From Terriglobales bacterium (GTDB lineage: Bacteria > Acidobacteriota > Terriglobia > Terriglobales > Acidobacteriaceae): DNA of 64,000 nucleotides. The stretch spans positions 14,813-78,812 of the forward strand of contig DATBAT010000258.1 in assembly GCA_036271375.1 (NCBI GenBank), written 5' to 3'. The position numbers were made by a program, and so were the translations under genes. This document shows, piece by piece, positions 13,500 through 53,600 of the stretch. Below the pieces are notes generated by a model. It was given only the letters and a program-made list of their open reading frames with translations, searched no databases and had not been told where the DNA came from. Each line of letters starts with the position of its first letter. Position 1 is the first letter of the stretch.

Positions 13500-13951
13500 G
13501 AAATTTTTGATTGCGCGGGACCTCAGCGGAGGAAAAGGCAAAGTCCGGCGAATTCAGTGTGGCCGATACTATTAATGTGAAGTGCCAGTGTCAAGTGTAT
13601 GTACGCCGGAGAACCTTGCCTCTAGCCAGCGAAGAAGAACTGCAGAAAATTGCGCTTCAGAATTGACCTGAAAATTCACGAAACTATTCCTTGCCTTGGG
13701 GCTTCGGTCTTGGTGTACACTGCCGTTGCCGAACAGGGTCCGGCACTGTTTTACGTTCAGTTTTTCTTCCCGGCTTGGGAAAAATCAGCGGTCAATCAAC
13801 TGCGTGGTTCAGTGGTAAATCCGTGGCCCGGATTTCGCCCGCGACTTCGATTTCTGCGAGTCGTGGCGTCAGGTATCGCCTTGGGGGAGGCGATAGCAGT
13901 AAATGCTGTCCTCTAGCTCCGTGATCTTAGTTCCAGCCAGGAGCCGTACCG

Positions 13952-14716
13952 ATGTCCCGGCCCAACACTGCAAGCGCGAATTTTGAGGACAGTGAACAGA
14001 CGCCTGCCCGGGCGGAAGTAGCCAGGCTCATCGAGTCACATCTCTCATACTCCCACGCAATCGCCTCGGAAGTAATTCGCAGGCTGCCGCCCGATCTCGA
14101 GAAAAAAGACATGGAAGGGTGGGCTGAGCTTGGCTTGGTCGAGGCTGCCAACGCTTTTGACCGTACGCGAGGCGTGCAATTCAAGACCTTCTCCTACTAC
14201 CGCATTAAAGGCGCGGTCTACGACGGACTGCGCAAGACGGGCTGGTATCCCAGGGGCCAGTATCAGCAGATGCGTTTCGAAATGGCCGCCAACGAATACA
14301 TGAAGGACGCGGCCGGGGAATCGGCGCCACCTTCCTCTGCGGATGCCCAGTTACGAGACTTAAAAGACCTGACCGGAAGCGTTGTCACCTGTTACATGCT
14401 TTCGTTGGACGCGTTACCGCAAGAGCCGGTCGACGAGGGGCAAACCTCCGCGGAAGAAACCGCAGTCCGCAATCAGGAGAAAAAGCACATTCGGTTCTCT
14501 CTCGCGCAACTGCCGGAGATGAACCGCAAAATCCTGGAGCATTGCTACTTCGAAGGCTTGACCCTGGAGGAAGCGGGCCGAAAGCTCGGCTACTCCAAGT
14601 CCTGGATGTGCCGGCTCCATGCGAAGTCTCTCGAAATGCTGCGCAAACAGTTAAACCAAATCTGGGGTAGTCCGGCTTCACCTTCGCCAGCAACCATTTC
14701 TGGAATTCTCCGATAA
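13952..14716 (+). CDS. FliA/WhiG-like (group 3, sigma-28-type) RNA polymerase sigma factor
   Basis: Region 2 'VQFKTFSYYRIKGAVYDGLRKTGW' parallels FliA 'F.TYA..RIRGAMLDELR..DW'. Region 4 HTH 'LPEMNRKILEHCYFEGLTLEEAGRKLGYSKSWMCRLHAKSLEMLRKQL'. It sits directly upstream of the T3SS genes. Confidence 0.8.
   Translation: MSRPNTASANFEDSEQTPARAEVARLIESHLSYSHAIASEVIRRLPPDLEKKDMEGWAELGLVEAANAFDRTRGVQFKTFSYYRIKGAVYDGLRKTGWYPRGQYQQMRFEMAANEYMKDAAGESAPPSSADAQLRDLKDLTGSVVTCYMLSLDALPQEPVDEGQTSAEETAVRNQEKKHIRFSLAQLPEMNRKILEHCYFEGLTLEEAGRKLGYSKSWMCRLHAKSLEMLRKQLNQIWGSPASPSPATISGILR
14689..14716 (+). promoter_or_regulatory. Candidate sigma-28-type promoter P(sctI): AGCAAC-N16-CGATAA
   Basis: AGCAAC at 14689-14694 and CGATAA at 14711-14716 (context TCCGATAATTTG, identical to the site at 29917-29928). 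It lies in the last codons of the sigma gene, just upstream of the sctI-like gene. Confidence 0.5.
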
Positions 14717-14717
14717 T

Positions 14718-15263
14718 TTGGATGTCATGGTAGACCCAACAATTAATAGCGTCCGTGGCAAGGGAATTTCACCCGTAGGCGAACAGGACCAGACCAGCCC
14801 GGCAAAAACCCAGGAATCGAAGTTCGATAAAGTCCGCTCGCGACTGCAGGATGAGCAGGCGGCAAAAGTCGACATTCCGCCGGAAGCCAAGCAAGTTTCC
14901 CTCCAGCAGAAAAAAGTCCTCGAGACCCAACTTTCGAAGCGTCTGGAAACCACCAAGCCAAACCAGGTTTTTGGACCCGACATGAAACGAGCAAAAGAGG
15001 GCATCACCCAGTTGTCTACTCGCGTGAATGCCCTGCCCAAGACGCCTGCGTTTGAACCCTTTCGTGACCGGCTGACGAGTATCGACAACCAATTTCAGCA
15101 GACGGGCAAGCTGGTGAATTCGATCAAGGGCACCGAGAGTCCGCAAGAGTTGATGGGCATTCAGAACAAGCTGTACCAGATGTCGGAGAACCTTGAATTA
15201 ATGAGCAAGGCGATAGAACAACTGACTTCTGGAGTGAAGTCCATTCTGCAAACTCAGGTTTAG
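14718..15263 (+). CDS. sctI: T3SS inner-rod-like protein (SctI/YscI/PrgJ-like C-terminus) with long N-terminal extension
   Basis: The C-terminal 'PQELMGIQNKLYQMSENLELMSKAIEQLTSGVKSILQTQV' resembles the SctI-family terminal helix ending in 'Q'. Located immediately before sctJ. TTG start at 14718; alternative ATG at 14727. Confidence 0.55.
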   Translation: MDVMVDPTINSVRGKGISPVGEQDQTSPAKTQESKFDKVRSRLQDEQAAKVDIPPEAKQVSLQQKKVLETQLSKRLETTKPNQVFGPDMKRAKEGITQLSTRVNALPKTPAFEPFRDRLTSIDNQFQQTGKLVNSIKGTESPQELMGIQNKLYQMSENLELMSKAIEQLTSGVKSILQTQV

Positions 15264-15290
15264 GCATACCGTTTAAGAATCGAGGATCGA

Positions 15291-16118
15291 TTGAGCTGGC
15301 AACACTTTTCGAAGCTGCTGATTGTGGCGGGCGCATTCCTGTTTTTGACCGCCTGTATGACGCATGAGTTGCAGACGGAACTTAGCGAACGCGACGCGCA
15401 GGAAATTGTCGTGTTGCTAAACGAAAACGGCATCGACGCCTCTGCCAGCAAAGCTACAGGCGAAAAAAAGGGCGAAGAGAAATGGACGGTGGCGATCCGA
15501 GGCGGCGACCAAAACCTGGCGCGCGCCTGGCGGGTGCTGCAAGAAAATGGCCTTCCGCGGCAGAAGGACAAGGGATTGGATGATGTGTTCGCGAGTTCGG
15601 GCATGATTCCGACGGCGGGGGAAGAAAAGGCGCGTCTGCTGATGGGCATCTCGGGAGAGATCAGCCGGACGTTGAAATCGGTTTCGGACGTGGTCGACGC
15701 CCATGTGTTGGTGGTGATGCCGGAATCGAATCCGTTGCTGGACAAGAGCGAGCGCATGCCGCCTACCGCCTCGGTTTTGATTAAGTACCGCGGGGCTAGC
15801 TTGCCTCTGGTAGAGGAAGACGTAAAAAAGCTGGTGGCGCGGGCGGTCGAAGGCTTGCAGCCGGAAAATGTCGTAGTGGTTTATAAGAAAATCGAGCCGA
15901 AGCAGACCATGGATCGCAGCTTGATTCCCATGTTGGGGAACCAGGAATTCCTGCTGGCTGCCTTAGTTTTGCTGGCGATCTCCAGTCTCGGCTGTTTGGC
16001 CTTGGCGGGAAAGGCCCGCTTCCAGCGCTCGAAAATCGAAAGCCTGGAGGATCAGCTTCAGGCGGCGACGCGCAAGCCGCAGCTTGAAACTCCGGTCAAG
16101 ATGGCGAGGACCAGTTGA
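15291..16118 (+). CDS. sctJ: T3SS inner-membrane ring lipoprotein SctJ (YscJ/EscJ/HrcJ family)
   Basis: Lipobox 'FLFLTAC' followed by 'LQTELSERDAQEIVVLLNENGIDASASK' (hallmark YscJ N-terminus). 'VVDAHVLVVMPE...ASVLIKY' and a C-terminal TM (FLLAALVLLAISSLGCLALAG). TTG start with GAGGA 5 nt upstream. Confidence 0.9.
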   Translation: MSWQHFSKLLIVAGAFLFLTACMTHELQTELSERDAQEIVVLLNENGIDASASKATGEKKGEEKWTVAIRGGDQNLARAWRVLQENGLPRQKDKGLDDVFASSGMIPTAGEEKARLLMGISGEISRTLKSVSDVVDAHVLVVMPESNPLLDKSERMPPTASVLIKYRGASLPLVEEDVKKLVARAVEGLQPENVVVVYKKIEPKQTMDRSLIPMLGNQEFLLAALVLLAISSLGCLALAGKARFQRSKIESLEDQLQAATRKPQLETPVKMARTS

Positions 16119-16402
16119 ACCTGGAAGTATTTTGCTATCTTGGGCTGCTAAAGTTTCCTGAAAAGTTGCAGCCCATGATGGCTCTTTTGGACGGTCCGCT
16201 GAAGACGCAGGCAACAGCTCTTTTGCAGGAACTGAAAGATGTGCCCAGACCTGAACTGCAGCGGCGATGGGCCAGGTTGCGCGATGAAGAGTACATCGCG
16301 ACGCGTGGGCAAATCGAACAGCAGATCAAAGTTAGACTCGACGATATGCCGCCGTCGATAAGAGTCTGGTGTACGTCCTGGTTAGCAGACCAACATGAGT
16401 GA
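16115..16402 (+). CDS. Small hypothetical protein in the sctK position
   Basis: 95-codon ORF overlapping both neighbours (sctJ stop, sctL start). No family recognised. Its position between sctJ and sctL is where sctK sits in Ysc-type loci. Confidence 0.4.
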   Translation: MNLEVFCYLGLLKFPEKLQPMMALLDGPLKTQATALLQELKDVPRPELQRRWARLRDEEYIATRGQIEQQIKVRLDDMPPSIRVWCTSWLADQHE

Positions 16403-17027
16403 AAAAATCCTCAAAGCCGATGGCCTTCCGGAAAGGATGGCTTTTTCGTCTCCCAAGATTTTGAAGCGGGAGGCTTACGAAGCCACGCAGGACGCCAAGG
16501 ACGTAGTCACCCAGGCACAGGAAAAGGCAAAGGATCTGCTCGAAAGCGCCGAGCGTCAACGGGACGCGATTCTGGAGACTTCCCGGCAGGAAGGTCGCGC
16601 GCAAGGTCTCGCCGAGTGGAACAACATTCTGGCGCAGGCTGCCCGACGTTCGGAAGAGCTAACAAAGAATTGGGAAGAAACCATGCTTCAACTCTCGGTG
16701 CGCGTTGCAGAGAAAATTATCGGAGAGCAACTCAAGCTGCACCCGGACACGATCGTTGCCATTGTCAGGGAGGCTCTCACCACAACCCGGGCAGGTCGAA
16801 GGCTGGTGATCCAGGTAAACGATCGCGAGGCTGACATCGTGCGGTCGCAAGTCGATCGCCTCAAAGGCGCATTGGGCCCCAGCAGCGAGATTGAGGTCGT
16901 GTCATCCACCACCGTGCCCACCGGCGGATGCGTAATCGAAAGCGAACTGGGCATCATCGACGCGCGTCTTGAAACGCAACTGAAGTGCCTCGAAGACGTC
17001 CTGCTGCGCCGCACTTCTTCCAACTAA
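16395..17027 (+). CDS. sctL: T3SS stator protein SctL (YscL/HrpE/FliH family)
   Basis: Charged coiled-coil N-half. The C-half 'VAEKIIGEQLKLHPDTIVAIVREAL...RRLVIQVNDREADIV...GGCVIESELGIIDARLETQLKCLEDVL' is typical of FliH/SctL. Confidence 0.85.
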   Translation: MSEKILKADGLPERMAFSSPKILKREAYEATQDAKDVVTQAQEKAKDLLESAERQRDAILETSRQEGRAQGLAEWNNILAQAARRSEELTKNWEETMLQLSVRVAEKIIGEQLKLHPDTIVAIVREALTTTRAGRRLVIQVNDREADIVRSQVDRLKGALGPSSEIEVVSSTTVPTGGCVIESELGIIDARLETQLKCLEDVLLRRTSSN

Positions 17028-17028
17028 C

Positions 17029-18366
17029 ATGCCGAACAAGGTCACCGATATTCGCGGCTACCTCGACCGGATTGAACAGGCTTCTCCGGTGCAGGTTCGC
17101 GGGCGGGTCAAGGAAGTTGTGGGTCTCGTGGTGAAAGCTGTAGTCCCCGAAGCATGGATCGGCCAGTTGTGCCTGATCAAGAATCCACGATCCTCTGTTC
17201 CGGTAAAAGCTGAGGTGGTCGGCTTCCGCGACGGCGATGTTCTGCTCATGCCTTTGGGAGAACTGGTGAACGTGGGTCCGCACAGCGAAGTCATCCCCAC
17301 GGGAAATTGTCTGACCGTCAAGGTTGGCGACAATTTGCTGGGCCGCGTGCTGAATGGATTAGGCGAGCCCATGGATGCAGACACCAAGGGACCTCTGAAC
17401 TGCTCCGAAGAGTTCCCGGTTCTTGGTTATCCTCCCGATCCCCTCAAGCGCCAGCGAGTTACCAGGCCCATTTCTCTGGGAGTTCGCGCCATCGACGCTG
17501 TTCTCACGGCGGGAGAGGGCCAGCGCATTGGATTGTTTGCGGCTGCCGGCGGTGGCAAAAGCACTCTGCTTGGAATGATCGCGCGAAACACCGAGGCTGA
17601 CGTCAATGTGATCACGCTGGTTGGCGAACGTGGCCGCGAAGTGCGCGATTTCATCGAGCAGGATCTCGGACCCGAAGGCGTCAAGCGCTCTGTGATTGTG
17701 TGCGCGACCTCGAACGAGTCGTCCCTGGTGCGCCTGAAAGCTGCCTATGTCGGCACCGCCATCGCCGAATATTTCCGCAACAAGGGCCTCAAAGTGATGT
17801 TGATGATGGATTCGGTCACTCGCTTTGCCCGAGCGCAGCGCGAGATCGGCCTGGCTTGCGGAGAGCCTCCAGCCCGCGCAGGATACACGCCTTCGGTATT
17901 CGCCGAACTGCCCAAACTCCTGGAGAGGTCGGGAAACTCCGACAAGGGTTCGATTACCGCCATTTACACCGTGCTGGTCGCGGGCGATGACATGAACGAA
18001 CCGGTGGCCGACGAAGTCCGATCGATTCTCGATGGTCACATCATCCTGTCGCGGGAGCTGGCCGCGCGCAATCATTATCCCGCGATCAACATTCTGGAAA
18101 GCGCCAGCCGTGTGATGAGCTCCGTCACTGACAAATCGCATCGGGTTTCCGCGGGGGATTTGCGCGACCGGATGGCCACCTATGCCAAGAATGAAGACCT
18201 AATTCTTCTGGGAGCTTACAAGGGCGGTACGGACAAGCGCGTCGACGACGCCATCGCGAAAATGCCTGAGATCAATGCATTCCTGAAGCAGGCGACGGAC
18301 GAAAAATCGGATTTTGCCGGGGCAGTCGACAACTTGAAAAAGATGTTTCCGGCGAATGTGTCATGA
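17029..18366 (+). CDS. sctN: T3SS ATPase SctN (YscN/HrcN/FliI family)
   Basis: Walker A 'GLFAAAGGGKSTLLGMI' and Walker B 'KVMLMMDSVTRFARAQREIGLA'. 'ITAIYTVLVAGDDMNEPVADEVRSILDGHIILSRELA' is conserved in the family. Confidence 0.95.
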   Translation: MPNKVTDIRGYLDRIEQASPVQVRGRVKEVVGLVVKAVVPEAWIGQLCLIKNPRSSVPVKAEVVGFRDGDVLLMPLGELVNVGPHSEVIPTGNCLTVKVGDNLLGRVLNGLGEPMDADTKGPLNCSEEFPVLGYPPDPLKRQRVTRPISLGVRAIDAVLTAGEGQRIGLFAAAGGGKSTLLGMIARNTEADVNVITLVGERGREVRDFIEQDLGPEGVKRSVIVCATSNESSLVRLKAAYVGTAIAEYFRNKGLKVMLMMDSVTRFARAQREIGLACGEPPARAGYTPSVFAELPKLLERSGNSDKGSITAIYTVLVAGDDMNEPVADEVRSILDGHIILSRELAARNHYPAINILESASRVMSSVTDKSHRVSAGDLRDRMATYAKNEDLILLGAYKGGTDKRVDDAIAKMPEINAFLKQATDEKSDFAGAVDNLKKMFPANVS

Positions 18367-18860
18367 CCCAGTTCTCCTACCGGCTGCGACCGTTGCTGGA
18401 GCAGAAGGAGCAGATCAGAAAAGATTGCGAAAACGACAAGCTGCGGCGCGACCGAGAGCTGGAGGCGCAAGAGGCCAGGCTGCTTGAACTACAGAAGCAG
18501 CAAAAAGATCTGGAAGAAAAGCGCGAAAAATTGCGCCGCGAGCTTTTCGCCACCACCCAACAGGGCCCGCCAACGGCGCACGATGTGGCCGACCGCCGAG
18601 CCTACGTAAAAGTCGTGGAACAACAGATTGAAGACGCGAAGAGCGACATTTTTGCGCAACGGCAAGTCATCGAAGATTGCAAGGCGCAGGTAGAAGAGGC
18701 AAAACGGCGAGTGGAAGAGGCCAGGCGGGAAGTTGAAGTTCTGGAAAAGCACCGGGCCAAACAGGAAGAGCGTTTCCGCCGAATGTTGCAAGCAAAAGAG
18801 GACCTGGAACTAGACGAAGTCGGTAACGTTCTGTACTCAACCAGAAGGTACCAGACATGA
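18363..18860 (+). CDS. sctO: T3SS stalk protein SctO (YscO/FliJ-like coiled coil)
   Basis: 165-aa E/K/R/Q-rich coiled-coil protein. It overlaps sctN by 4 nt and sctP by 4 nt, which is the canonical position after sctN. Confidence 0.65.
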   Translation: MTQFSYRLRPLLEQKEQIRKDCENDKLRRDRELEAQEARLLELQKQQKDLEEKREKLRRELFATTQQGPPTAHDVADRRAYVKVVEQQIEDAKSDIFAQRQVIEDCKAQVEEAKRRVEEARREVEVLEKHRAKQEERFRRMLQAKEDLELDEVGNVLYSTRRYQT

Positions 18861-19486
18861 AAATCACAGATTCGCAACCGCCTGTGTCCGACGCTAATTC
18901 TCCGGCTGACGATGCTGATTCGGCCAAGAAGTCCAAAGACGATAAGGCATCCCCGTTTTCCCAATTGCTGTCGAAGAAGAAGGGCAATAACAACGGTGAC
19001 GAGTCTCCCAGTAAAGGCGCTCCGTCGCGGGAAGCCGTGTTCGACCCCGCCGCTGCCGGCTTAATACCGGGTCAAATGCCGAAAACCGAGTTGCCAATCA
19101 AGACAGCGCAGGTTGAAGGCAAGCAGCCAGTGACGCTGCCGGTGGAGCTTCAACAACTGGTGCGCGAAATCACGGTCGGCGTAAACGCCGCGGGCCGGCA
19201 GGAAGTTCATATCGAGATGAACTCCAACGTGTTGAAGGGGCTGCACATTCAGGTGGAAAGAAAAGACGGAGCCATTGCGATCCAGTTTCAGAGTACTTCC
19301 GACCAGGTGACCAATATTTTGCAGAGAAACGTGGCCGCATTGTCGCAGGCGTTTACCGATAAAGGCATGAACGAGCCGGTGATTCGCGTCAACGGGCCGA
19401 GTGAAGCTGGCGAGTCCGGAGAATTCAAAAGTCAATCGCAATTCGGCGGCCGCGGCCAACGCGGCGGCCAACGCGGGGGTCGATAG
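18857..19486 (+). CDS. sctP: SctP/FliK-like length-control (T3S4 / Flg_hook-type C-domain) protein
   Basis: Disordered N-half. The C-domain 'QEVHIEMNSNVLKGLHIQVERKDGAIAIQFQSTSDQVTNILQRNVAALSQAFTDKGM' follows the FliK/YscP C-terminal pattern. GR-rich tail. Confidence 0.65.
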   Translation: MKITDSQPPVSDANSPADDADSAKKSKDDKASPFSQLLSKKKGNNNGDESPSKGAPSREAVFDPAAAGLIPGQMPKTELPIKTAQVEGKQPVTLPVELQQLVREITVGVNAAGRQEVHIEMNSNVLKGLHIQVERKDGAIAIQFQSTSDQVTNILQRNVAALSQAFTDKGMNEPVIRVNGPSEAGESGEFKSQSQFGGRGQRGGQRGGR

Positions 19487-19516
19487 CCGCACCCGGAATT
19501 TGCGGCGCGATCCCAT

Positions 19517-26585: not shown

Positions 26586-28724
26586 ATGATTGAAAAAATC
26601 CAGACGCAGCTGCTTGATCTCAAAAAAGAGATTCAGGGCGGCAATCTCACCGGCGTTCTAACCCGGTTTGCGGATCTGCTCCTGGTTGGACTCGTTGCGG
26701 TCATGATCGGACTGATGATCGTGCCGCTGCCGACCTTTCTTCTCGACATATTTCTAACCATAAATATTACGGCGGCAGTGACCATCCTGATGGTCTCGAT
26801 CTACATATCGAGCCCAACCCAGATTGGTTCATTCCCCACCTTACTTCTCCTCACTACGCTCTACCGCTTGTCCCTGGATATTTCCGCGACCCGATTAATT
26901 CTGCTCAAGGCCGATGCCGGCGAAGTGATCCGGGCCTTTGGCATGTTTGTGGTCAGCGGCAATTTTGTAGTCGGCGCCGTCATTTTCCTGATCATCACTC
27001 TGGTCCAGTTCATTGTGATCACGAAGGGCGCTGAGCGCGTTGCGGAGGTCTCCGCCCGCTTCACTCTCGACGCCATGCCCGGCAAGCAGATGAGTATCGA
27101 CGCCGATCTGCGGGCGGGCATCATCGATTTCCAAACCGCGCGCTCCAGACGCGAGGGGTTGGCTCGCGAAAGCCAGTTCTATGGCGCGATGGATGGCGCC
27201 ATGAAGTTTGTGAAGGGTGATGCCATCGCTGGAATTGTCATCACCGCCATCAATATCGTCGGCGGATTGATCATTGGCGTTGCCATGAACAATATGAGCG
27301 TGATGGAGGCAGTGCAGACTTACTCCATCCTGACCATCGGCAACGGTCTGGTATCGCAGATTCCGGCTCTGCTGATTTCGATCTCGGCCGGCATGGTAGT
27401 CACCCGCGTCGCCTCGGAAACTCCTGATTCAAATCTTGGCAAGGATGTCGCCGGGCAGATCCTGGGCCAGCCGAAAGCAATTGCAGTAGCCTCAGGCTTG
27501 CTGACGATCATGGCGATTATCCCGGGCCTACCCAAAATTCCGTTCTTTATTCTGGCTTCATTGACCGGTTCGTTGGCTTATGGGCTTTTCCGCGCACAAA
27601 GAATGCGATTGGAAGCGAGCCAACAGAGTCAGCAAGACGTGGTCGCCGCGAAAGTGCAAGACCCGCAGATGTCGCTCACCGTCCCCCTGGTTTTGCAAGC
27701 CGGGGAAGGTCTGACCCCGTTGGTCGACATTGAAACCGAAGGCGGTAAGAAATTTTACGAGCAACTTCTTGGAGTGAGAAACGGTCTCTACTACGAACTC
27801 GGGGTAATTTTCCCTTCGCTTCAGGTCAAGGGCAACTCTCCTGGCGATCCCGGCGGCTACACCATTTGGGCCAACGAGGTGCCCGTGGTGAACGGCCTGA
27901 TTCGCATGGACGCCGTGATGGTGAACGACTCGGTCTCCGGCATTTCGATTTACGGACTAAAGGGCGAGGAGACCACCAACCCAGCGACGGGGAAACCTGC
28001 GGCGTGGATTCCGCGTGATCAAGCGGCGCGAGCCAAAGAAATCGGACTGACGGTCTGGGACAGCCAGGAGATTCTTCTTTTGCATTTGGCGCACTACCTG
28101 AAAAAGAACGCGCGAGAGTTTATTGGAATTCAAGAAGTGCAGGTGATGGTTTCTGCGCTCAAGCAGCACTACCCAACATTGGTGGAAGAGACTGTGCCAA
28201 AGCCAGTGTCGCTGCAAACCCTCACTGAGATTTTGCGGAAACTGGTCGAAGAAGAAGTATCCATACGCGATCTCAAAGCAATTTTCCAGACGCTATGCGA
28301 ATGGGGCCGCGCTGAGCACGACCCACTGGCTTTGACGGAGCAGGTGCGCGCGGGGCTGAAGAGGAAAATTTGCTACCGGCTTTCCGAAGGCCGCCCGCTG
28401 ATGTTCGTGTATCAGTTGGATCCTGAAATCGAGGAGATGTTTCGCAATTCCATACGGCAAAGCGCCAGCGGCGCCTATCTGGCAATGGAACCGGCAATGA
28501 GTCAACAAGTTTTGGAAGCCGCGCGAGCCCATCTCGGCAATCTTCCTGCGAGCGCGCAGCGGCCGGTGATCGTTACCGATGGGGAGATTCGGCGGTTCGT
28601 GAAAAAGCTTCTGGATTTCGCAATTCCCGATGTCACGGTTTTGAGTTACGACCAGATTACGCCGCAAATTAATTTGCAGCCCCTGGGCGTAATCGCTCCA
28701 GTGAGAACGCAGCTTGCCAGTTAG
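26586..28724 (+). CDS. sctV: T3SS export-gate protein SctV (FlhA/YscV/InvA family)
   Basis: 712 aa. FHIPEP signature 'RVAEVSARFTLDAMPGKQMSIDADLRAG', polytopic N-domain plus a large cytoplasmic domain. Confidence 0.95.
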   Translation: MIEKIQTQLLDLKKEIQGGNLTGVLTRFADLLLVGLVAVMIGLMIVPLPTFLLDIFLTINITAAVTILMVSIYISSPTQIGSFPTLLLLTTLYRLSLDISATRLILLKADAGEVIRAFGMFVVSGNFVVGAVIFLIITLVQFIVITKGAERVAEVSARFTLDAMPGKQMSIDADLRAGIIDFQTARSRREGLARESQFYGAMDGAMKFVKGDAIAGIVITAINIVGGLIIGVAMNNMSVMEAVQTYSILTIGNGLVSQIPALLISISAGMVVTRVASETPDSNLGKDVAGQILGQPKAIAVASGLLTIMAIIPGLPKIPFFILASLTGSLAYGLFRAQRMRLEASQQSQQDVVAAKVQDPQMSLTVPLVLQAGEGLTPLVDIETEGGKKFYEQLLGVRNGLYYELGVIFPSLQVKGNSPGDPGGYTIWANEVPVVNGLIRMDAVMVNDSVSGISIYGLKGEETTNPATGKPAAWIPRDQAARAKEIGLTVWDSQEILLLHLAHYLKKNAREFIGIQEVQVMVSALKQHYPTLVEETVPKPVSLQTLTEILRKLVEEEVSIRDLKAIFQTLCEWGRAEHDPLALTEQVRAGLKRKICYRLSEGRPLMFVYQLDPEIEEMFRNSIRQSASGAYLAMEPAMSQQVLEAARAHLGNLPASAQRPVIVTDGEIRRFVKKLLDFAIPDVTVLSYDQITPQINLQPLGVIAPVRTQLAS

Positions 28725-29582
28725 CTACGGTTGCGTCGGAGAAGTAGTGGTCAATAGATCGCGGATAAGACTGGAAAACCGGCGCGTTTCCACGAAGCCG
28801 CAAACCTGAAGAAGCCGTTGTGAGTAGCTCTGATCGAACACGTTGGTAGCGGTAAGAGTTGCCCGATAGTTGGAGACGAGAAAACGGAGTAGTTCGCAGC
28901 CGGCAGGAATGGATTGTTCCGGCGAACGAATATCCAGTAAGGTGTGCGGCGCTTCCGGCAGAATCGCCGCATAGGCCTTGAGTTCATCGCCGGAAAAGGC
29001 ACCGAGGGTCTGGATCATGGGAACTGCATTCATCAGGAAGGCGGGCCTCTGGCTCCAGTGAAGGTGCTCTTCCGGGGGAAGTTGGATTTGAGAAAGCAGT
29101 GCTGCCTCAATGGGCCGGACTGCGAAACTCGGATCCGGATCGGGCAGGGTGGCATGGTCACACCGCATGTCCATGAGCCGGTACTGCGGATAGGCCTGAA
29201 TGAAACGGTAACGTTGCGCGGGGCGATCGCTGACGGAGACGCCGTAGAGAGTTTCGTATCCGTCGTCGCGCAACCGCTGGCAGCATGCGTCAAACAGAGG
29301 CACGGAAATGGGCCGGCTCCGAAACTGGGCCAGCGTGCCCCAGTACAACGTGTATGCAGAGCGCGTTTTTTGGTCCGTGCAGTTGAGCATCAAGGCGGCG
29401 GGTTCGCCTTCAACGTATCGGACAAGGGAATATTTGTAAGAAAAATTCCAGTATCGAGAAAAGTTCAGGAAGCCAAACATGTCGAGATGAAATTCAAGCG
29501 ATGTGCCGCGGGAGGATTCGTTCAAAAGACGGATAACGTCGGGCAGGTTTTCCAGGCCTATGGGGCGTAGTTCTTCCAGCAT
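28725..29582 (-). CDS. Hypothetical protein, possibly tandem GNAT-like acyltransferase fold
   Basis: 285-aa ORF on the opposite strand inside the T3SS locus. Its stop abuts the sctV stop with zero spacing. The weak two-lobed pattern ('EGEPAALMLN...TLYWGTLAQFRSRPISVPLFDACCQRLRDDGYETLY') is only suggestive. Confidence 0.45.
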   Translation of the reverse strand: MLEELRPIGLENLPDVIRLLNESSRGTSLEFHLDMFGFLNFSRYWNFSYKYSLVRYVEGEPAALMLNCTDQKTRSAYTLYWGTLAQFRSRPISVPLFDACCQRLRDDGYETLYGVSVSDRPAQRYRFIQAYPQYRLMDMRCDHATLPDPDPSFAVRPIEAALLSQIQLPPEEHLHWSQRPAFLMNAVPMIQTLGAFSGDELKAYAAILPEAPHTLLDIRSPEQSIPAGCELLRFLVSNYRATLTATNVFDQSYSQRLLQVCGFVETRRFSSLIRDLLTTTSPTQP

Positions 29583-29624
29583 CGGAAACGCATCATACTA
29601 CAGCGTCTTAAGGGAGGTTTAGCC

Positions 29625-29897
29625 ATGAGGCAAGAAGCACGACAGACTAATTCGGCGGGAAGAGACGACATTGGCTGGCGTCAATTTCCGGAATTTGAAA
29701 AAATTCTAACCAATGAACCGCCAGCCCCCATTCTGAGCAAGGTGGAGAAGACATGCCGCCAGCTGAATGAGGTGATCCTGTCTGGATCGGAAACCGATAA
29801 AGCACGCGCCCAATTGGGCATGACGGCATACGGACGCTCTTTGGATCTGCTGCGCATGCTCACAGAAATGCGTGACAAATCAGCGGAGCAGAAGTAG
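29625..29897 (+). CDS. Small helical hypothetical protein (yscE-position)
   Basis: 90-aa ORF preceded by GGGAGG, directly upstream of the needle-like gene. No family recognised. Confidence 0.45.
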   Translation: MRQEARQTNSAGRDDIGWRQFPEFEKILTNEPPAPILSKVEKTCRQLNEVILSGSETDKARAQLGMTAYGRSLDLLRMLTEMRDKSAEQK

Positions 29898-29923
29898 CAA
29901 CATTGGCGGCTCACATCCGATAA
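29896..29923 (+). promoter_or_regulatory. Candidate sigma-28-type promoter P(sctF): AGCAAC-N16-CGATAA
   Basis: TAGCAAC at 29895-29901 and TCCGATAATTTG at 29917-29928. AGGAGG at 29931-29936 and ATG at 29945 follow. Confidence 0.55.
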
Positions 29924-29944
29924 TTTGAACAGGAGGCGAAACCG

Positions 29945-30292
29945 ATGTCCGAAATTAACCGCGCTTTGAGCATGGCATCCTCGCCGAATTACAGCATTGA
30001 TCAGATTTTGCAGACCACCACGCCTGCCAAGCAGCCGGGAGGATTCCGGCGAGTACTGGGCGGAATCGTTGGCGCAGTGGGCAACGTCTTCGCTCCCGGA
30101 ATCGGCGGCATGATCGGCAGCGCAATTTCCGGGAACACCGGCATCAACCAGACTGGCTTGATGAATGACTCCATGCAGTATCTGCAACTGCAGAAACAGA
30201 TGAACATGGAGCAGCAGGCTTTCGAAACCGCTTCCTCGGTGATGAAAGCTCGTCACGATGCGTCGATGGCCGCGATTCGCAATATGACCTAG
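29945..30292 (+). CDS. sctF: T3SS needle-family protein (SctF-like) with Gly-rich N-terminal extension
   Basis: The C-terminus 'MQYLQLQKQMNMEQQAFETASSVMKARHDASMAAIRNMT' parallels PrgI/MxiH '...YRNAQSNTVKVFKDIDAAIIQNFR' (S..V.K...D..AAI.(Q/R)N + 2 aa). Confidence 0.65.
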   Translation: MSEINRALSMASSPNYSIDQILQTTTPAKQPGGFRRVLGGIVGAVGNVFAPGIGGMIGSAISGNTGINQTGLMNDSMQYLQLQKQMNMEQQAFETASSVMKARHDASMAAIRNMT

Positions 30293-30320
30293 CGGGACTG
30301 AAGGTCAATGGAGGTCACAA

Positions 30321-30725
30321 ATGGCAACCAGGTGGACTATCGCTCCTTCTAAAGAAGAAGCGGAGTTTTTGTTGGAAGCGGGAATCATCTATCGCGACGC
30401 GAAGAACTTCGCCGCCGCCCGCGACGTATTCATGGGCGTGCAGACGCTATTTCCGAAGAGCGAAGTTCCCGAGGTACTGCTGGGCACCGTGTCTTTCCAG
30501 GAAGGCAAATTCGAAGAGGCCGAGCGGCACTATCAAAAGGCTCTCGAATTAAATTCGCGTAGCGCTTTCGCGCATGCCTATCTGGGCGAGGCTTCGCTGT
30601 TCCGCAAAGATAAAGAAGCAGCGCGCGTGCATCTGAAGACCGCTTTGACACTGGACCCTTTGGGAGAGTCGGGCAAGATGGCCCGAAGACTCATGGAAAT
30701 GTCCGATCAAGTGACGTTCGCGTAA
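30321..30725 (+). CDS. Small TPR protein (YscG/PscG-position needle chaperone candidate)
   Basis: 134 aa, TPR units ('AGIIYRDAKNFAAARDVFMGVQTLFPKSEVPEVLLGTVSFQEGKFEEAERHYQKALELNSRSAFAHAYLGEASL'). Immediately downstream of the needle-like gene. Confidence 0.55.
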   Translation: MATRWTIAPSKEEAEFLLEAGIIYRDAKNFAAARDVFMGVQTLFPKSEVPEVLLGTVSFQEGKFEEAERHYQKALELNSRSAFAHAYLGEASLFRKDKEAARVHLKTALTLDPLGESGKMARRLMEMSDQVTFA

Positions 30726-30740
30726 TCCGGCAGTTGAACG

Positions 30741-31103
30741 ATGGGTATTGATGACATCAAGCCGCCGGGGTTCTATGGCTCTTTTGTTCCTTCTTCAAGC
30801 GAAGCGCCAATTGAATCCAAGCGCGACAATAGTTTTTCCGAGGTCAAGGGTAAGGTGGAGTCCCCTGCCTCTGAGCCCGCGCGTCTGTCCTTGGGCGCAG
30901 CTGCCGATCTCAAGAAGACCGACCTTCAGGATCCCGCAAAGCTGGAACAGATAGTGCGCAGCTCGGCATCGGAACTTGTCGACTCGCAGAACTTGTCAGG
31001 ACCTTTGTCGGCTTCCGACAAGAAATCGCTGGTGGATTTCCTTTCGCAAGATCCAAAGTTTCGTCAACAGATTGAGTCCTACCTTCGAAAGGTCGCGGTA
31101 TAG
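30741..31103 (+). CDS. Hypothetical protein (low-complexity, possible substrate/regulator)
   Basis: 120-aa ORF in the operon, S/E/P/K-rich and apparently disordered N-half. No family recognised. Confidence 0.45.
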   Translation: MGIDDIKPPGFYGSFVPSSSEAPIESKRDNSFSEVKGKVESPASEPARLSLGAAADLKKTDLQDPAKLEQIVRSSASELVDSQNLSGPLSASDKKSLVDFLSQDPKFRQQIESYLRKVAV

Positions 31104-31106
31104 GCC

Positions 31107-31628
31107 ATGGAGATTCTGCTTTCTATTCGCTCCAAGACGGACGGCAGCGTCCGTGAACTGAAGCAAGAAATTGCCAGCGGCGTGGCTCTGGGTCGCGGCG
31201 CGGAGCACGGCATTCTGCTGGACGGGCAGGACCTCTCCCGCGAACACGTGGTGCTTACCACCGACGGCGACCGCGTTTTCGTAACCGACCTGAGCAGCAA
31301 TGGAACGTGGCTGAACGGAAAGCGGCTTACGCGATTAACCCGCAGCGCCTTTCGCGTGGGCGATTCCGTTGACATCCCTGGCTACACGCTGAGCTATCGG
31401 CTCGAAGAACCTCCACCACCGCCCGAACCTGCGAAAGCACCTGAGGCACCGGCCCCACTGCCAAGTATCGAGCGGCAGGTGGTGGTTTCACCTCCAGAGC
31501 CGATTCGTCCCGCGCCACGCGGTAATCCTGTCTTTGCTTTTATCGGATCGTTCAGTTTTGGAGAGAAGTTCTTGATTCTGGTTGGACTGGGCGGACTGTT
31601 GCTGATCTACACCTACGCGGGATTGTAG
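31107..31628 (+). CDS. FHA-domain protein with Pro-rich linker and C-terminal TM anchor (truncated SctD-like architecture)
   Basis: FHA: 'VALGRGAEHGILLDGQDLSREHVVLTTDGDRVFVTDLSSNGTWLNGKRL...VGDSVDIPGYTLSY'. Linker 'EEPPPPPEPAKAPEAPAP'. Terminal TM 'FLILVGLGGLLLIYTYAGL', then a stop. Confidence 0.8.
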   Translation: MEILLSIRSKTDGSVRELKQEIASGVALGRGAEHGILLDGQDLSREHVVLTTDGDRVFVTDLSSNGTWLNGKRLTRLTRSAFRVGDSVDIPGYTLSYRLEEPPPPPEPAKAPEAPAPLPSIERQVVVSPPEPIRPAPRGNPVFAFIGSFSFGEKFLILVGLGGLLLIYTYAGL

Positions 31629-46570: not shown

Positions 46571-46592
46571 TGCTTTTACCTTTGACAGATTG

Positions 46593-47438: not shown

Positions 47439-47447
47439 AAGGTTGCC

Positions 47448-53563: not shown

Positions 53564-53600
53564 AGTATGGCTTCTTGCTCTGTCCGAGTAACCGGGATGA

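What the first reader, a model, noticed from the sequence alone, without database searches (positions are those of the whole stretch)
13952..31628. Atypical non-flagellar T3SS locus with retained flagellar traits, in an Acidobacteria-like context
Gene order, mostly translationally coupled (4-nt or 1-nt overlaps): FliA-like sigma, sctI-like, sctJ, orf95, sctL, sctN, sctO, sctP, FHA-sctQ, fliO-like, sctR, sctS, sctT, sctU, orf133 + TPR, Gly-rich needle-like, SycD-like TPR, sctV, (opposite-strand orf), orf90 / sctF-like / TPR, orf120, FHA-TM.

Injectisome-type parts are the SctJ lipoprotein (not FliF), SctF/SctI-family helices and class II TPR chaperones. Flagellum-type parts are the sigma-28-like factor, CGATAA -10 boxes and the FliO homologue.

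I could not find any of the following in the window: a secretin (sctC), a full-length sctD, a gatekeeper (sctW), hydrophobic translocators, or any FliF/FliG/FliM/rod/hook/flagellin/Mot gene.

Described non-flagellar T3SS families are mainly proteobacterial, chlamydial and myxococcal. A secretin-less, FliO-containing, sigma-28-wired system in this lineage would bear on how injectisomes arose from flagella. It may also have a non-host-directed function.
Basis: partly seen in the sequence, partly recalled or inferred. Interest (0 to 1): 0.9.

Follow-up and report, generated by a model that had tools for sequence, protein, structure and literature searches.

The report
Secretin-less type III secretion in Acidobacteria
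A soil acidobacterium (order Terriglobales) carries a complete, well-conserved type III secretion gene cluster with no outer-membrane pore, and it is the sister of the "needleless" system that Myxococcus uses to lyse prey, so this early offshoot of the flagellum now extends to a second phylum.

Summary
Window 13952-31628 (+) encodes, in the stated order:
- a FliA-like sigma factor;
- the ring and cytoplasmic parts: SctI-like, SctJ, SctL, SctN, SctO, SctP and an FHA-SctQ fusion;
- the export gate: FliO and SctRSTUV;
- three TPR chaperones and two glycine-rich SctF-like proteins;
- a tail-anchored FHA protein.

No secretin, full SctD, SctW or translocator is in the 64 kb. The HMMs used found these parts in control loci.

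In NJ trees of the concatenated proteins, non-flagellar (NF) T3SS are monophyletic (100). The Acidobacteria group with a myxobacterial (Archangium) locus (75-91). All secretin-bearing systems form the sister group (95-100 with corrected distances). The Archangium locus also has:
- the same gene order;
- FliO;
- a tail-anchored FHA "mini-SctD";
- a TPR / Gly-rich SctF-like / TPR module.

The cluster is therefore a relative of the published Myxo "T3SS*".

New here:
- The host phylum. The window matches a Terriglobales MAG 100% in two proteins, and there are over 100 SctV clusters in soil data.
- The FHA-SctQ fusion.
- A sigma-28-type promoter (GCAA-N15/16-nCGATAA) conserved at four sites, one inside sctQ ahead of a conserved SD+GTG.
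- SctF-like genes in a lineage described as needleless.

Function is inferred, not shown.

The parts
11755..12630 (-). Tll0287-like sensor domain plus HAMP membrane protein. It is a conserved upstream neighbour and a possible input sensor.
   Evidence: Pfam PF11845 1.4e-42 and HAMP. 61-69% identical homologues sit next to the cluster in 10 metagenome loci. dN/dS 0.19.
12636..13541 (-). orf301, a signal-peptide protein of unknown family. It is a conserved upstream neighbour, divergent from the sigma gene.
   Evidence: No Pfam hit. Hydrophobic N-terminus. Conserved at 46-54% in 10 loci. dN/dS 0.16.
13952..14716 (+). FliA/WhiG-like sigma factor, the first gene of the cluster.
   Evidence: Sigma70_r2 and r4. 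Best NCBIfam hit is FliA_WhiG, 111 bits, below the 189.6 cutoff. 60-68% identical in all loci that reach this position. dN/dS 0.15.
14690..14716 (+). P1, a sigma-28-type promoter-like motif: GCAA-N15-TCCGATAA. It overlaps the sigma stop codon and lies 10 nt before the sctI-like ATG.
   Evidence: The motif is present at this site in 29 of 32 related loci.
14727..15263 (+). SctI-like inner-rod protein.
   Evidence: PF17001, E 0.0018, covering the C-terminal 60 residues. Homologues start with MVDP. dN/dS 0.16.
15291..16118 (+). SctJ inner-membrane ring lipoprotein.
   Evidence: PF01514 1.5e-23. TIGR02544 SctJ 153 bits, just under the 162 cutoff, against FliF 42 bits. Lipobox LTAC and a C-terminal TM.
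16115..16402 (+). orf95, which occupies the position of SctK between sctJ and sctL. Its family is unknown.
   Evidence: No Pfam or NCBIfam hit. Conserved in all loci. dN/dS 0.25. The positional analogy comes from the reference loci.
16395..17027 (+). SctL stator.
   Evidence: FliH 2.6e-19. HrpE/YscL families.
17029..18366 (+). SctN ATPase.
   Evidence: TIGR02546 624 bits against a cutoff of 605.
18363..18860 (+). SctO stalk.
   Evidence: YscO-like 7e-14.
18857..19486 (+). SctP/FliK-type ruler with a T3S4 domain.
   Evidence: Flg_hook 9e-7 and HpaP 6e-5. yscP domain 8e-5.
19517..20926 (+). FHA-SctQ fusion: a sorting-platform protein with a canonical N-terminal FHA domain.
   Evidence: FHA 3.8e-14 and FliMN_C 3.4e-15. 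SpaO_YscQ 7.8e-22 over residues 311-466. The GR and SxxH FHA motifs are visible in the sequence.
20613..20640 (+). P2, a sigma-28-type motif inside sctQ.
   Evidence: Present in 13 of 13 related loci, although the spacer and the encoded residues vary.
20663..20926 (+). Putative internally initiated SctQ-C: 87 aa comprising the SpoA/FliN domain.
   Evidence: A conserved SD-like GAGAGGAG / GAAAGGGG is followed by an in-frame GTG (TTG in one locus) in all 12 loci inspected.
20926..21360 (+). FliO homologue.
   Evidence: PF04347 9.2e-11. TIGR03500 50.1 bits against a cutoff of 55. One TM. dN/dS 0.24.
21365..22222 (+). SctR, with a Pro/Ala-rich insertion of about 55 aa.
   Evidence: FliP 1.7e-65. 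Start.
22219..22485 (+). SctS.
   Evidence: Bac_export_3 3.7e-27.
22496..23320 (+). SctT.
   Evidence: Bac_export_1 9e-52.
23330..24388 (+). SctU switch protein with an intact NPTH motif.
   Evidence: Bac_export_2 3e-116. SctU 369 bits against 358 and FlhB 352 against 349, so it passes both cutoffs.
24401..24802 (+). orf133, a conserved protein of unknown family.
   Evidence: No family hit. 38-48% identical in relatives. dN/dS 0.31.
24805..25194 (+). TPR chaperone-like protein (TPR129).
   Evidence: TPR_19. 37% identical to the Archangium TPR at the same position.
25202..25229 (+). P3, a sigma-28-type motif 55 nt upstream of the Gly-rich gene.
   Evidence: Found in 9 of 9 loci and in five more. 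Archangium has GAAA-N15-CGCGATAA at the equivalent site.
25285..25947 (+). Gly220, a glycine-rich protein with an SctF-like C-terminal helix. It is a candidate filament or needle subunit.
   Evidence: PF09392, E 0.19 here. The L081 orthologue scores 29.4 bits, which equals the gathering cutoff (E 9.5e-7). hhalign against four reference SctF proteins gives 91%.
25961..26476 (+). TPR chaperone, LcrH/SycD- and SctY-like, directly upstream of sctV.
   Evidence: LcrH_SycD 1.9e-14 and SctY 2.9e-9.
26586..28724 (+). SctV export gate.
   Evidence: FHIPEP 7.6e-235. TIGR01399 785 bits against 692, while FlhA scores 691 against 772.
28725..29582 (-). GNAT-family acetyltransferase embedded in the cluster on the opposite strand.
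   Evidence: A profile of 29 homologues hits YpeA at 5e-8, plus RimI and Naa50. Present in L081, L137 and L138 but absent from L136.
29625..29897 (+). orf90, a small helical protein at the position of a YscE-type co-chaperone.
   Evidence: No family hit. 64% identical in L081. The position argument comes from the yscE-F-G order.
29897..29923 (+). P4, a sigma-28-type motif 21 nt upstream of orf115.
   Evidence: Present in 7 of 7 loci, 5 of them distinct sequences.
29945..30292 (+). orf115, which has a glycine-zipper middle and an SctF-like C-terminal helix. It is a paralogue of Gly220 at the C-terminus.
   Evidence: hhalign gives 95.9% against the Gly220 family and 88% against SctF references. 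No Pfam needle hit. 90 homologues, all from this kind of locus.
30321..30725 (+). TPR chaperone (TPR134), at the YscG-like position after orf115.
   Evidence: TPR_2 3.6e-15. 73% identical in L081.
30741..31103 (+). orf120, a conserved protein of unknown family, mostly predicted to be disordered.
   Evidence: No family hit. 50% identical in L081. dN/dS 0.32.
31107..31628 (+). Tail-anchored FHA protein, a 'mini-SctD': FHA domain, Pro-rich linker and a C-terminal TM, with no periplasmic domain. It is the last gene of the cluster.
   Evidence: FHA 3.3e-13 and Yop-YscD_cpl 1.3e-6. TM at residues 142-160. The Archangium counterpart has the same layout. The cluster ends here in all relatives.
31613..33760 (-). 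Ser/Thr protein kinase, convergent with the FHA gene. It is a facultative neighbour.
   Evidence: Pkinase 1.1e-41. Present at this position in L081, L138 and L139 but absent from L136 and L137.

Best explanation
[quoted passage not shown] It belongs to the same early-branching lineage as the myxobacterial T3SS*.

Shown:
- The cluster encodes the ATPase complex (SctL/N/O).
- It encodes a sorting platform built on an FHA-SctQ fusion.
- It encodes the FliO-assisted export gate (SctRSTUV) and the SctJ ring.
- It encodes a tail-anchored FHA 'mini-SctD', a ruler (SctP) and an intact SctU switch.
- It encodes an SctI-like protein and two Gly-rich SctF-like proteins, each next to TPR chaperones.
- The genes are conserved in synteny and are under purifying selection across many soil Acidobacteria.
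- A sigma-28-type promoter motif is conserved at four fixed positions.

Inferred:
- The cluster's own FliA-like sigma factor drives these four promoters. This would retain flagellum-style control of rod and filament genes.
- The promoter inside sctQ, with its conserved SD and GTG, yields a separate SctQ-C, as in injectisomes.
- The machine exports the SctI-like and SctF-like subunits into the periplasm. It then switches through SctP and SctU to other substrates.
- Because no dedicated outer-membrane pore is linked, these substrates either stay in the envelope or leave through another channel such as a Tad-type secretin, as proposed for Myxococcus.
- Neighbouring Ser/Thr kinases gate assembly through the two canonical FHA domains.
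- The likely biological role is contact-dependent action on other microbes, not on eukaryotic hosts.
For: Identity of the parts.

Lineage: two proteins are 100% identical to a Terriglobales MAG.

Spread:
- More than 100 SctV clusters at 72-98% identity.
- 47 soil-metagenome loci.
- The same synteny in L081 and L136-L138 and in the metagenome loci.

Selection: median dN/dS is 0.05-0.34 for core and accessory genes.

Phylogeny (SctV alone):
- NF-T3SS monophyly 100.
- Acido + Archangium 91, and 75-90 under other distance models.
- Per gene: SctT 99, SctR 78, SctV 72, SctU 62.
- Secretin-bearing systems are monophyletic at 95-100 with corrected distances.

Characters shared with Archangium L001:
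- Gene order N-O-P-Q-FliO-R-S-T-U-x-TPR-Gly-rich-TPR-V.
- FliO at 1.4e-10.
- A tail-anchored FHA protein.
- A sigma-28-type motif before the Gly-rich gene.

Promoters:
- 5 hits in the window against 0.18 expected.
- Site occupancy 29/32, 13/13 and 9/9, and 7/7.
- 67 plus-strand hits against 4 minus-strand hits in 454 kb.
- SD plus GTG after the internal site in 12 of 12 loci.

SctF-likeness.

Absence of secretin, SctW and translocon, with a positive control.

Functional analogy: the M. xanthus T3SS* is needed for prey lysis and is recruited by the Kil Tad pilus (PMC12075869, PMC10433427). Tad systems with secretins occur in Acidobacteria (PMC4793230).
Against: - No experiment exists for any acidobacterial system, so the role and the substrates are pure inference.
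- Only about 20 kb on each side of the cluster could be inspected, not the rest of any genome. A distant secretin, a full SctD or a Kil-like partner is therefore neither shown nor excluded.
- The trees are neighbour-joining on simple distances and include a single T3SS*-type myxobacterial locus. The alternative in which Archangium is basal to Acido plus the rest gets 5-21% of bootstraps.
- The sigma factor scores below the FliA/WhiG family cutoff. Its link to the motif rests only on the motif's resemblance to TAAA-N15-GCCGATAA.
- P1 would give a nearly leaderless sctI mRNA.
- P2 lies in coding sequence, so part of its conservation could be protein constraint (the DKYFER motif).
- The window's own Gly220 scores only E 0.19 against the needle Pfam model.
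- The AlphaFold model of orf115 was of low confidence (pLDDT 58).
Confidence: 0.7

Rival explanations
1. It is a complete injectisome whose secretin, full-length SctD, gatekeeper, tip and translocon genes lie elsewhere in the genome, as in the split loci of Chlamydia. It would then inject effectors into eukaryotic cells such as protists, fungi or plant roots.
For: - The rest of the genome could not be searched.
- SctF-like, SctI-like, SctP and class II TPR chaperone-like genes are present, which is what a needle-building system needs.
- Chlamydial systems are scattered (PMC3459982).
Against: - No secretin, SctW or translocon lies within about 10-20 kb in the window or in 11 relatives, and the positive control worked.
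- The only SctD-like protein lacks the periplasmic ring domain that couples to a secretin.
- The system branches with the secretin-less myxobacterial lineage, outside the secretin-bearing clade.
Confidence: 0.12
2. It is a decaying remnant of a flagellar or injectisome locus and has no function.
For: It lacks parts regarded as essential for both machines. The myxobacterial counterpart was first annotated as a relic (PMC3459982).
Against: - All of the roughly 25 reading frames are intact.
- Synteny is kept across loci whose SctV proteins differ by up to 28%.
- dN/dS is 0.05-0.34.
- Promoter motifs, the SD and the internal start are conserved.
- The M. xanthus relative has a phenotype (PMC12075869).
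Confidence: 0.02
3. It is the export core of a split flagellar regulon, or of an unusual flagellum.
For: FliO, the FliA-like sigma, sigma-28-type promoters, an SctU that also passes the FlhB cutoff, and an SctN that scores close to FliI clade 2.
Against: - It has an SctJ lipoprotein rather than FliF.
- No FliG, FliM-N domain, rod, hook, flagellin or Mot gene is in the 64 kb.
- SctV fails the FlhA cutoff.
- All core proteins fall inside the NF-T3SS clade with 100% bootstrap, away from about 47 flagellar loci.
Confidence: 0.02
4. The machine is the same, but its purpose differs. It would assemble a novel glycine-rich periplasmic or surface filament, or export envelope proteins, for adhesion, gliding or cell-envelope remodelling rather than for antagonism.
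For: - Two abundant-type structural genes (Gly220 and orf115) have their own strong-looking promoters and dedicated chaperones.
- No toxin or effector gene could be recognised in the cluster.
- An EPS cluster and kinases lie nearby.
Against: The only studied relative acts in prey lysis (PMC12075869). The retained SctP/SctU switch implies later substrates beyond the filament subunits.
Confidence: 0.14

Closest known systems
Myxococcales secretin-less NF-T3SS: the 'Myxo' group of Abby & Rocha 2012, and the M. xanthus T3SS* (MXAN_2434-2464)
   Same: - It is the sister lineage in core-protein trees.
- No secretin, gatekeeper or translocon.
- It has SctJ/I/L/N/O/P/Q/RSTUV plus several LcrH-like TPR chaperones.
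- FliO lies between sctQ and sctR.
- It has a tail-anchored FHA protein in place of a full SctD.
- A TPR / Gly-rich SctF-like / TPR module sits directly upstream of sctV, with a sigma-28-type motif before the Gly-rich gene.
- Ser/Thr kinases lie nearby.
   Different: - The host is a different phylum (Acidobacteriota).
- Core proteins are only 38-58% identical.
- SctQ carries an N-terminal FHA domain here, whereas the Archangium SctQ has a FliM-type domain.
- The mini-SctD has one FHA domain rather than two.
- A second SctF-like module (orf90 / orf115 / TPR134 / orf120) lies downstream of sctV.
- A GNAT gene is embedded in the cluster.
- A sigma factor heads the cluster. The 5' end of the Archangium locus was not available for comparison.
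- No Kil/Tad partner has been identified.
Canonical injectisomes (Ysc, Inv-Mxi-Spa, Hrp, Rhc, Desulfovibrionales and chlamydial families)
   Same: - An SctJ lipoprotein, the SctV and SctN family signatures and the SctP/SctU switch.
- An SctI-like rod.
- SctF-like C-terminal helices flanked by a small protein and a TPR chaperone, as in YscE-F-G.
- An SctY-like TPR before sctV.
- An internal SctQ-C start.
   Different: - No secretin, no periplasmic SctD ring, and no recognisable SctK, SctW, tip or translocon.
- FliO is retained.
- A FliA-type sigma replaces AraC, ECF or sigma-54 regulators.
- The needle-like proteins carry long glycine-rich inserts.
- The system branches outside the secretin-bearing clade (95-100% bootstrap).
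Flagellar type III export apparatus with FliA (sigma-28) class 3 control
   Same: - FliO.
- A FliH-like SctL and a FliK-C-type ruler domain.
- An SctU that passes the FlhB cutoff.
- A FliA/WhiG-like sigma.
- Promoters with the sigma-28 layout: xxAA-N15/16-nnCGATAA.
   Different: - No FliF, FliG, FliM, FliE, rod, hook, flagellin or Mot gene.
- SctV fails the FlhA cutoff.
- It is separated from flagellar loci by a 100% bootstrap split.
- No FlgM-like anti-sigma factor was recognised.
T6SS threonine-phosphorylation pathway (PpkA-Fha1)
   Same: Canonical FHA domains sit on structural parts of a secretion machine, next to Hanks-type Ser/Thr kinases. NCBIfam TagH-type FHA similarity is 6e-9.
   Different: It is a different machine, and the kinase is not always adjacent (absent from L136 and L137). 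No phosphatase was identified. The link is an analogy only.

Membership tests
Non-flagellar T3SS (TXSScan / Abby & Rocha definition) | At least 7 of the 8 core genes (sctJ, N, Q, R, S, T, U, V) clustered | tested here: met
   All eight are present in 15291-28724.
Non-flagellar T3SS (TXSScan / Abby & Rocha definition) | A secretin (sctC) in the system | tested here: not met
   No Pfam secretin hit in any ORF scanned. The SctC HMM found nothing in the window or in 11 relatives, but scored 392 bits in the control locus L004. The rest of the genome was not searchable.
Non-flagellar T3SS (TXSScan / Abby & Rocha definition) | Absence of flagellum-specific genes (FlgB, FlgC, FliE and the like) | tested here: met
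   No flagellar rod, hook, switch or motor domain in the ORFs of the 64 kb window that were scanned.
Non-flagellar T3SS (TXSScan / Abby & Rocha definition) | Core proteins branch in the NF-T3SS clade, not among flagellar homologues | tested here: met
   100% bootstrap in the SctV tree and in the concatenated NJ tree. SctV passes the SctV cutoff but not the FlhA cutoff.
Myxo-type secretin-less NF-T3SS (T3SS*) | Phylogenetic affiliation with the Cystobacterineae systems, basal to secretin-bearing NF-T3SS | tested here: met
   It is sister to Archangium L001 at 91% (75-90% under other distances). The remaining NF-T3SS are monophyletic at 95-100%. There is only one myxobacterial representative and the method is NJ only.
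Myxo-type secretin-less NF-T3SS (T3SS*) | Gene content: sorting platform, export apparatus, SctJ/SctI, FHA-type SctD and LcrH-like chaperones, with no secretin or translocon | tested here: met
   Compared with the description in PMC10433427 and with L001.
Myxo-type secretin-less NF-T3SS (T3SS*) | No needle subunit ('needleless') | tested here: not met
   Two SctF-like proteins are present. The Archangium locus has one too (PF09392 E 0.16, and it is a member of alignment A2). The criterion itself may therefore need revising.
Myxo-type secretin-less NF-T3SS (T3SS*) | Works with a Tad-like Kil pilus in contact-dependent prey lysis | not testable with these tools
   No Tad genes lie in the window or the flanks, and there are no experiments.
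Flagellar T3SS | FliF MS ring, FliG/FliM switch, and rod, hook and filament genes | tested here: not met
   SctJ scores 153 bits against 42 bits for FliF. None of the other genes was found.
FliA/WhiG (sigma-28) sigma factors | Score above the family cutoff of TIGR02479 | tested here: not met
   111.3 bits against a cutoff of 189.6. It is nonetheless the best-scoring family by a wide margin (E 5.5e-32, against 1.3e-14 for SigB/F/G).
FliA/WhiG (sigma-28) sigma factors | Cognate promoters of the form TAAA-N15-GCCGATAA | tested here: inconclusive
   A conserved GCAA-N15/16-nCGATAA sits at four sites. The -10 element and the spacing match, but the -35 element differs. Binding by this sigma factor was not tested.
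SctF needle family (PF09392) | Match to the family model at the gathering score | tested here: inconclusive
   Window Gly220 scores 12.4 bits (E 0.19). Its orthologue in L081 scores 29.4 bits, which equals the cutoff. orf115 has no hit. Profile-profile probabilities are 91% and 88% over the C-terminal helix only.
SctD inner-membrane ring | Cytoplasmic FHA-like domain, TM helix and periplasmic ring-building domains | tested here: not met
   The FHA domain and TM are present, but the protein ends about 13 residues after the TM. The reference SctD HMM gives no hit.
FliO | Match to PF04347 above the gathering score, one TM, and a gene adjacent to fliP/sctR | tested here: met
   42.1 bits against a cutoff of 22. 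One TM at residues 26-44. The gene ends 4 nt before sctR.

The most novel reading that the evidence does not exclude
The T3SS* lineage is not needleless. In both Acidobacteria and Myxococcota it would export glycine-rich SctF-like subunits, expressed from sigma-28-type 'late' promoters under a FliA-like sigma factor. The lineage would then be a living, two-phylum, soil-wide intermediate between flagellum and injectisome. It would keep flagellar transcriptional logic and FliO, have already invented SctJ and the SctF/SctI rod, and build a periplasmic or Tad-coupled conduit without a secretin.
Probability: 0.3. Interest if true: 0.8.

Novelty: new variant of a known kind. Interest (0 to 1): 0.6.

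Why it matters
The secretin-less myxobacterial system is the main evidence for how injectisomes arose from flagella. Until now it looked like a peculiarity of one order. A conserved, selected sister system that is common in soil Acidobacteria has several consequences:
- It shows that the intermediate form is old and ecologically widespread.
- It gives a second, independent lineage for inferring the ancestral state: FliO, a tail-anchored FHA protein instead of an SctD ring, SctF-like subunits and sigma-28-type control.
- It suggests that abundant, poorly understood soil Acidobacteria may engage in contact-dependent interactions with other microbes.
- The four predicted promoters, the internal SctQ-C start and the Gly-rich SctF-like proteins are concrete, testable predictions.

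Tried and rejected
- Exact look-up of the window's SctV found nothing. The source was identified only later, through orf115 and Gly220.
- The single genome-contig scan was swamped by a universally conserved FlhA/SctV peptide. It returned no acidobacterial genome, only distant relatives. These were still useful as tree taxa. The consequences were that no whole-genome context was obtained and that the 5' part of the Archangium locus was not seen.
- phmmer and hmmsearch of orf115 against PDB gave no needle hit. The Gly220 C-terminus gave only a marginal hit (E 0.031) to a 43-residue chain of 7y6c.
- AlphaFold gave pLDDT 58 for the orf115 family (41 sequences) and pLDDT 37 for orf285 as a single sequence. 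Both models are too poor, so no fold search was run.
- Pfam and NCBIfam at permissive thresholds gave nothing for orf95, orf133, orf90 and orf120. A FlgM-like role for orf120 and an SctK-like role for orf95 remain guesses.
- The search for homologous proteins with Gly220 was defeated by glycine-rich words and returned only 5 hits.
- A shared-9-mer count (k-mer look) at the region upstream of the sigma gene gave no interpretable promoter.
- The CsgG/FlgT_C lipoprotein at 10660-11634 was considered as an outer-membrane partner. It was rejected because it is not conserved next to the cluster.
- The exact CCGATAA heptamer alone is not enriched: 9 hits against 5.2 expected. Only the bipartite motif is enriched.

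Full report
**1. The observation**

- FliA/WhiG-like sigma factor.
- SctI-like protein (weak hit, E 0.0018).
- SctJ lipoprotein.
- orf95.
- SctL, SctN and SctO.
- SctP (FliK-C/HpaP domain).
- A 469-aa FHA + SctQ fusion.
- FliO (PF04347, 9e-11).
- SctR, SctS and SctT.
- SctU (NPTH motif intact).
- orf133.
- A TPR protein.
- A 220-aa glycine-rich protein.
- An LcrH/SctY-like TPR protein.
- SctV.
- A minus-strand ORF.
- orf90.
- orf115.
- A TPR protein.
- orf120.
- An FHA protein with a C-terminal membrane anchor.

Corrected starts are ATG 14727 for the sctI-like gene, 21365 for sctR and 22496 for sctT.

The curated NCBIfam cutoffs place the system between the two machines but on the injectisome side:
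- SctV passes the SctV cutoff and fails the FlhA cutoff.
- SctN passes the SctN cutoff.
- SctU passes both the SctU and the FlhB cutoffs.

The rest of the window encodes ordinary acidobacterial genes:
- a CarboxypepD_reg TonB-type porin;
- glycoside hydrolases;
- three Ser/Thr kinases;
- an EPS glycosyltransferase cluster.

**2. The absences are real within reach**

I built HMMs from reference SctC, SctD, SctW, SctK, YopB/D, SctI, YscX and YscE. The references came from the Yersinia, Shigella, D. vulgaris, Bradyrhizobium and Ralstonia loci fetched. I searched these HMMs against all six-frame ORFs of the window, 11 related acidobacterial loci and the Archangium locus.

There was no hit at E<=1, except that the Archangium double-FHA protein matched SctD. 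The same HMMs found SctC (392 bits), SctD, SctW, SctI and YscE in a Lentisphaeria locus, and SctW in three chlamydial loci. The negative result is therefore informative.

What cannot be excluded is a distant locus, because no whole genome could be searched.

**3. Where it comes from and how common it is**

orf115 and Gly220 are 100% identical to hypothetical proteins VH088_11670 and VH088_11645 of a 'MAG TPA: Terriglobales bacterium' on a 91-kb contig. Terriglobales belongs to the phylum Acidobacteriota.

The 120 best SctV relatives listed are 72-98% identical. Where they are named, they are Terriglobales or Candidatus Sulfotelmatobacter.

A metagenome scan with SctJ returned 47 contigs from JGI metagenome assemblies. 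Look-ups with SctV relatives gave four longer contexts. Across these:
- Synteny is the same from the sigma gene to the FHA-anchor gene.
- The cluster always ends at the FHA-anchor gene. Downstream genes differ: kinases, sugar metabolism genes or a LysM protein.
- A Tll0287-HAMP sensor and a signal-peptide protein travel with the cluster upstream in 10 loci.

Nei-Gojobori dN/dS medians are 0.05-0.34 for core and accessory genes, including the sigma factor, the SctI-like protein, orf95, FliO and orf133. The cluster is functional, not a relic.

**4. What it is related to**

Outside Acidobacteria the best SctV is from an Archangium MAG (49%). Chlamydiae follow at 46-47%. Flagellar FlhA proteins are at about 40%.

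I built neighbour-joining trees with my own script, using 100 bootstraps.

SctV alone, 92 taxa:
- NF-T3SS clade 100.
- Acidobacteria 100.
- Acidobacteria + Archangium 70.

Concatenated SctV/U/R/S/T/N, 2028 columns and 61 taxa:
- NF-T3SS 100.
- Acidobacteria + Archangium 91.
- All secretin-bearing families 95. These are the chlamydial, Ysc, Mxi-Spa, Hrp2, rhizobial and Desulfovibrionales systems.

Other distance corrections give 75-90 for Acidobacteria + Archangium and 98-100 for the secretin-bearing clade. Per-gene support is SctT 99, SctR 78, SctV 72, SctU 62 and SctS 18.

This is the topology of Abby & Rocha 2012 (PMC3459982), with the acidobacterial system joining their basal secretin-less 'Myxo' group.

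Gene content agrees. The Archangium locus has:
- the order sctN-O-P-Q-fliO-R-S-T-U-(x)-(x)-TPR-Gly-rich-TPR-sctV;
- a FliO (1.4e-10);
- a double-FHA protein that, like the window's FHA173, ends in a membrane anchor with no periplasmic domain.

Its SctQ has FliM-type and FliN-type domains instead of an FHA domain.

The literature describes the M. xanthus T3SS* as follows (PMC10433427, PMC12075869):
- It contains SctD, SctJ, SctI, SctQ, SctRSTUV, SctN, SctL and LcrH-like chaperones.
- It has no secretin, needle or translocon.
- It is needed for prey lysis.
- It is recruited by the Kil Tad pilus.

FliO in myxobacterial NF-T3SS was reported in 2025 (PMC12248157). I found no paper describing an NF-T3SS in Acidobacteria. 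Abby & Rocha list the phylum among hosts of flagella only.

**5. The flagellum-style wiring**

The bare heptamer CCGATAA is not enriched. The bipartite motif GCAACN{13,19}CGATAA occurs five times against 0.18 expected. Four of these lie on the + strand of the locus:
- at the 3' end of the sigma gene, 10 nt before the sctI-like ATG;
- inside sctQ;
- 55 nt before Gly220;
- 21 nt before orf115.

Written as GCAA-N15/16-nnCGATAA, the motif has exactly the layout of the sigma-28 consensus TAAA-N15-GCCGATAA. That consensus is from my own knowledge.

In the related loci the motif is present at 29/32, 13/13, 9/9 and 7/7 of these sites, and the spacers vary freely. Hits number 67 on the plus strand against 4 on the minus strand in 454 kb.

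In the Archangium locus, the only CGATA[AT] on the + strand is GAAA-N15-CGCGATAA, directly upstream of its Gly-rich gene.

The internal sctQ site is followed in all 12 loci inspected by an SD-like GAGAGGAG/GAAAGGGG and an in-frame GTG (TTG in one). These sit just upstream of the SpoA domain. This predicts a separately made SctQ-C of 87 aa, as is known for injectisome SctQ (own knowledge).

The idea that the cluster's FliA-like sigma factor reads these promoters is an inference. The protein is closest to FliA/WhiG but scores below the family cutoff.

**6. Needle-like proteins**

The Gly-rich protein of L081 matches Pfam T3SS_needle_F at exactly the gathering score (29.4 bits, E 9.5e-7). The window's copy and the Archangium copy score only E 0.19 and E 0.16.

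Profile-profile comparisons, all end-to-end over the C-terminal ~42-residue helix:

| Comparison | Probability |
|---|---|
| Gly220 family vs four reference SctF proteins | 91% |
| orf115 family vs SctF references | 88% |
| orf115 family vs Gly220 family | 95.9% |

orf115 has a glycine-zipper middle. JGI auto-names its homologues SlyB or YcfJ.

The arrangement orf90 / orf115 / TPR134 mirrors yscE-yscF-yscG. TPR171 before sctV mirrors yscY-yscV.

PDB sequence searches and AlphaFold did not add support.

My conclusion is that these are divergent members or derivatives of the SctF family. This also questions the 'needleless' label for the myxobacterial relatives. Polymerisation is untested.

**7. 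Other features**

- Both FHA domains keep the canonical GR and SxxH motifs (sequence). They sit next to Hanks-type kinases in the window, L081, L138 and L139, but not in L136 or L137. Phosphothreonine-dependent control of assembly is plausible but facultative.
- The minus-strand ORF is a GNAT acetyltransferase. Its profile hits YpeA at 5e-8. The family has only 50 clusters among 1.84 billion representatives.
- orf95 sits where sctK sits in reference loci, but it has no detectable similarity to SctK.

**8. Verdict**

The locus is real, complete in itself, conserved and under purifying selection.

It is best described as an acidobacterial variant of the known secretin-less, FliO-containing, early-branching NF-T3SS lineage typified by the Myxococcus T3SS*. 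It is not a new family.

New points are:
- the phylum and the system's abundance in soil;
- the FHA-SctQ fusion;
- the conserved sigma-28-type regulon, including an internal sctQ promoter and start;
- the SctF-like genes.

Function is inferred by analogy only: envelope or contact-dependent export, probably directed at other microbes.

Noticed in passing
window 28725-29582 (-): A GNAT-family N-acetyltransferase (YpeA/RimI/Naa50-like N-terminal half) is embedded on the opposite strand between sctV and the second SctF-like module. The family is small, with 50 clusters at 50% identity among 1.84 billion representatives. In L136 a 200-aa plus-strand ORF takes its place.
   Followed up: partly
L005, L006, L048, L050, L051 (Myxococcota / 'delta proteobacterium' MAGs): A second clade of NF-type SctV genes (83% bootstrap) stands alone. 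No other T3SS gene is detectable within 10 kb on the sides that are available.
   Followed up: partly
L001:8646-9161 (+) and L001:12740-13834 (-), Archangium MAG: This locus from the 'needleless' myxobacterial lineage encodes a Gly/Ala-rich protein with an SctF-like C-terminal helix. The gene is preceded by GAAA-N15-CGCGATAA. The locus's 'SctD' is two FHA domains, an acidic linker and a C-terminal TM, with no periplasmic domain.
   Followed up: partly
L001:7250-7528 (+): A stand-alone 92-aa FlhB/SctU C-terminal domain gene lies directly after the full-length sctU in the Archangium locus.
   Followed up: no
window 11755-12630 (-) and 12636-13541 (-): A Tll0287-like/HAMP membrane protein with no output domain and a signal-peptide protein of unknown family accompany the cluster upstream of the sigma gene in 10 metagenome loci. 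They may be its sensory input.
   Followed up: partly
window 21365-22222 (+): SctR carries a Pro/Ala-rich insertion of about 55 residues in the region between its membrane segments. This makes it 285 aa, against about 217 aa in reference SctR proteins.
   Followed up: no
window 10660-11634 (-): A CsgG-like lipoprotein with a FlgT_C-like C-terminal domain lies 2.3 kb upstream of the cluster. It is not conserved next to the cluster in related loci.
   Followed up: yes
window 31613-33760 (-), 34025-36526 (+), 40753-43668 (+): Three Hanks-type Ser/Thr kinases lie within 12 kb downstream of the cluster. The first overlaps the end of the FHA-anchor gene by 16 nt in convergent orientation.
   Followed up: partly
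window 45380-57777 (-): A long same-strand exopolysaccharide or O-antigen-type cluster: GT1/GT2/GT4 glycosyltransferases, a Wzy-like polymerase, an acyltransferase, a priming sugar transferase and a flippase.
   Followed up: no
window 14716-14729: The predicted promoter P1 ends only 10 nt before the sctI-like ATG. Transcripts from it would therefore be nearly leaderless. Some relatives have an AGGAG in this short gap.
   Followed up: no
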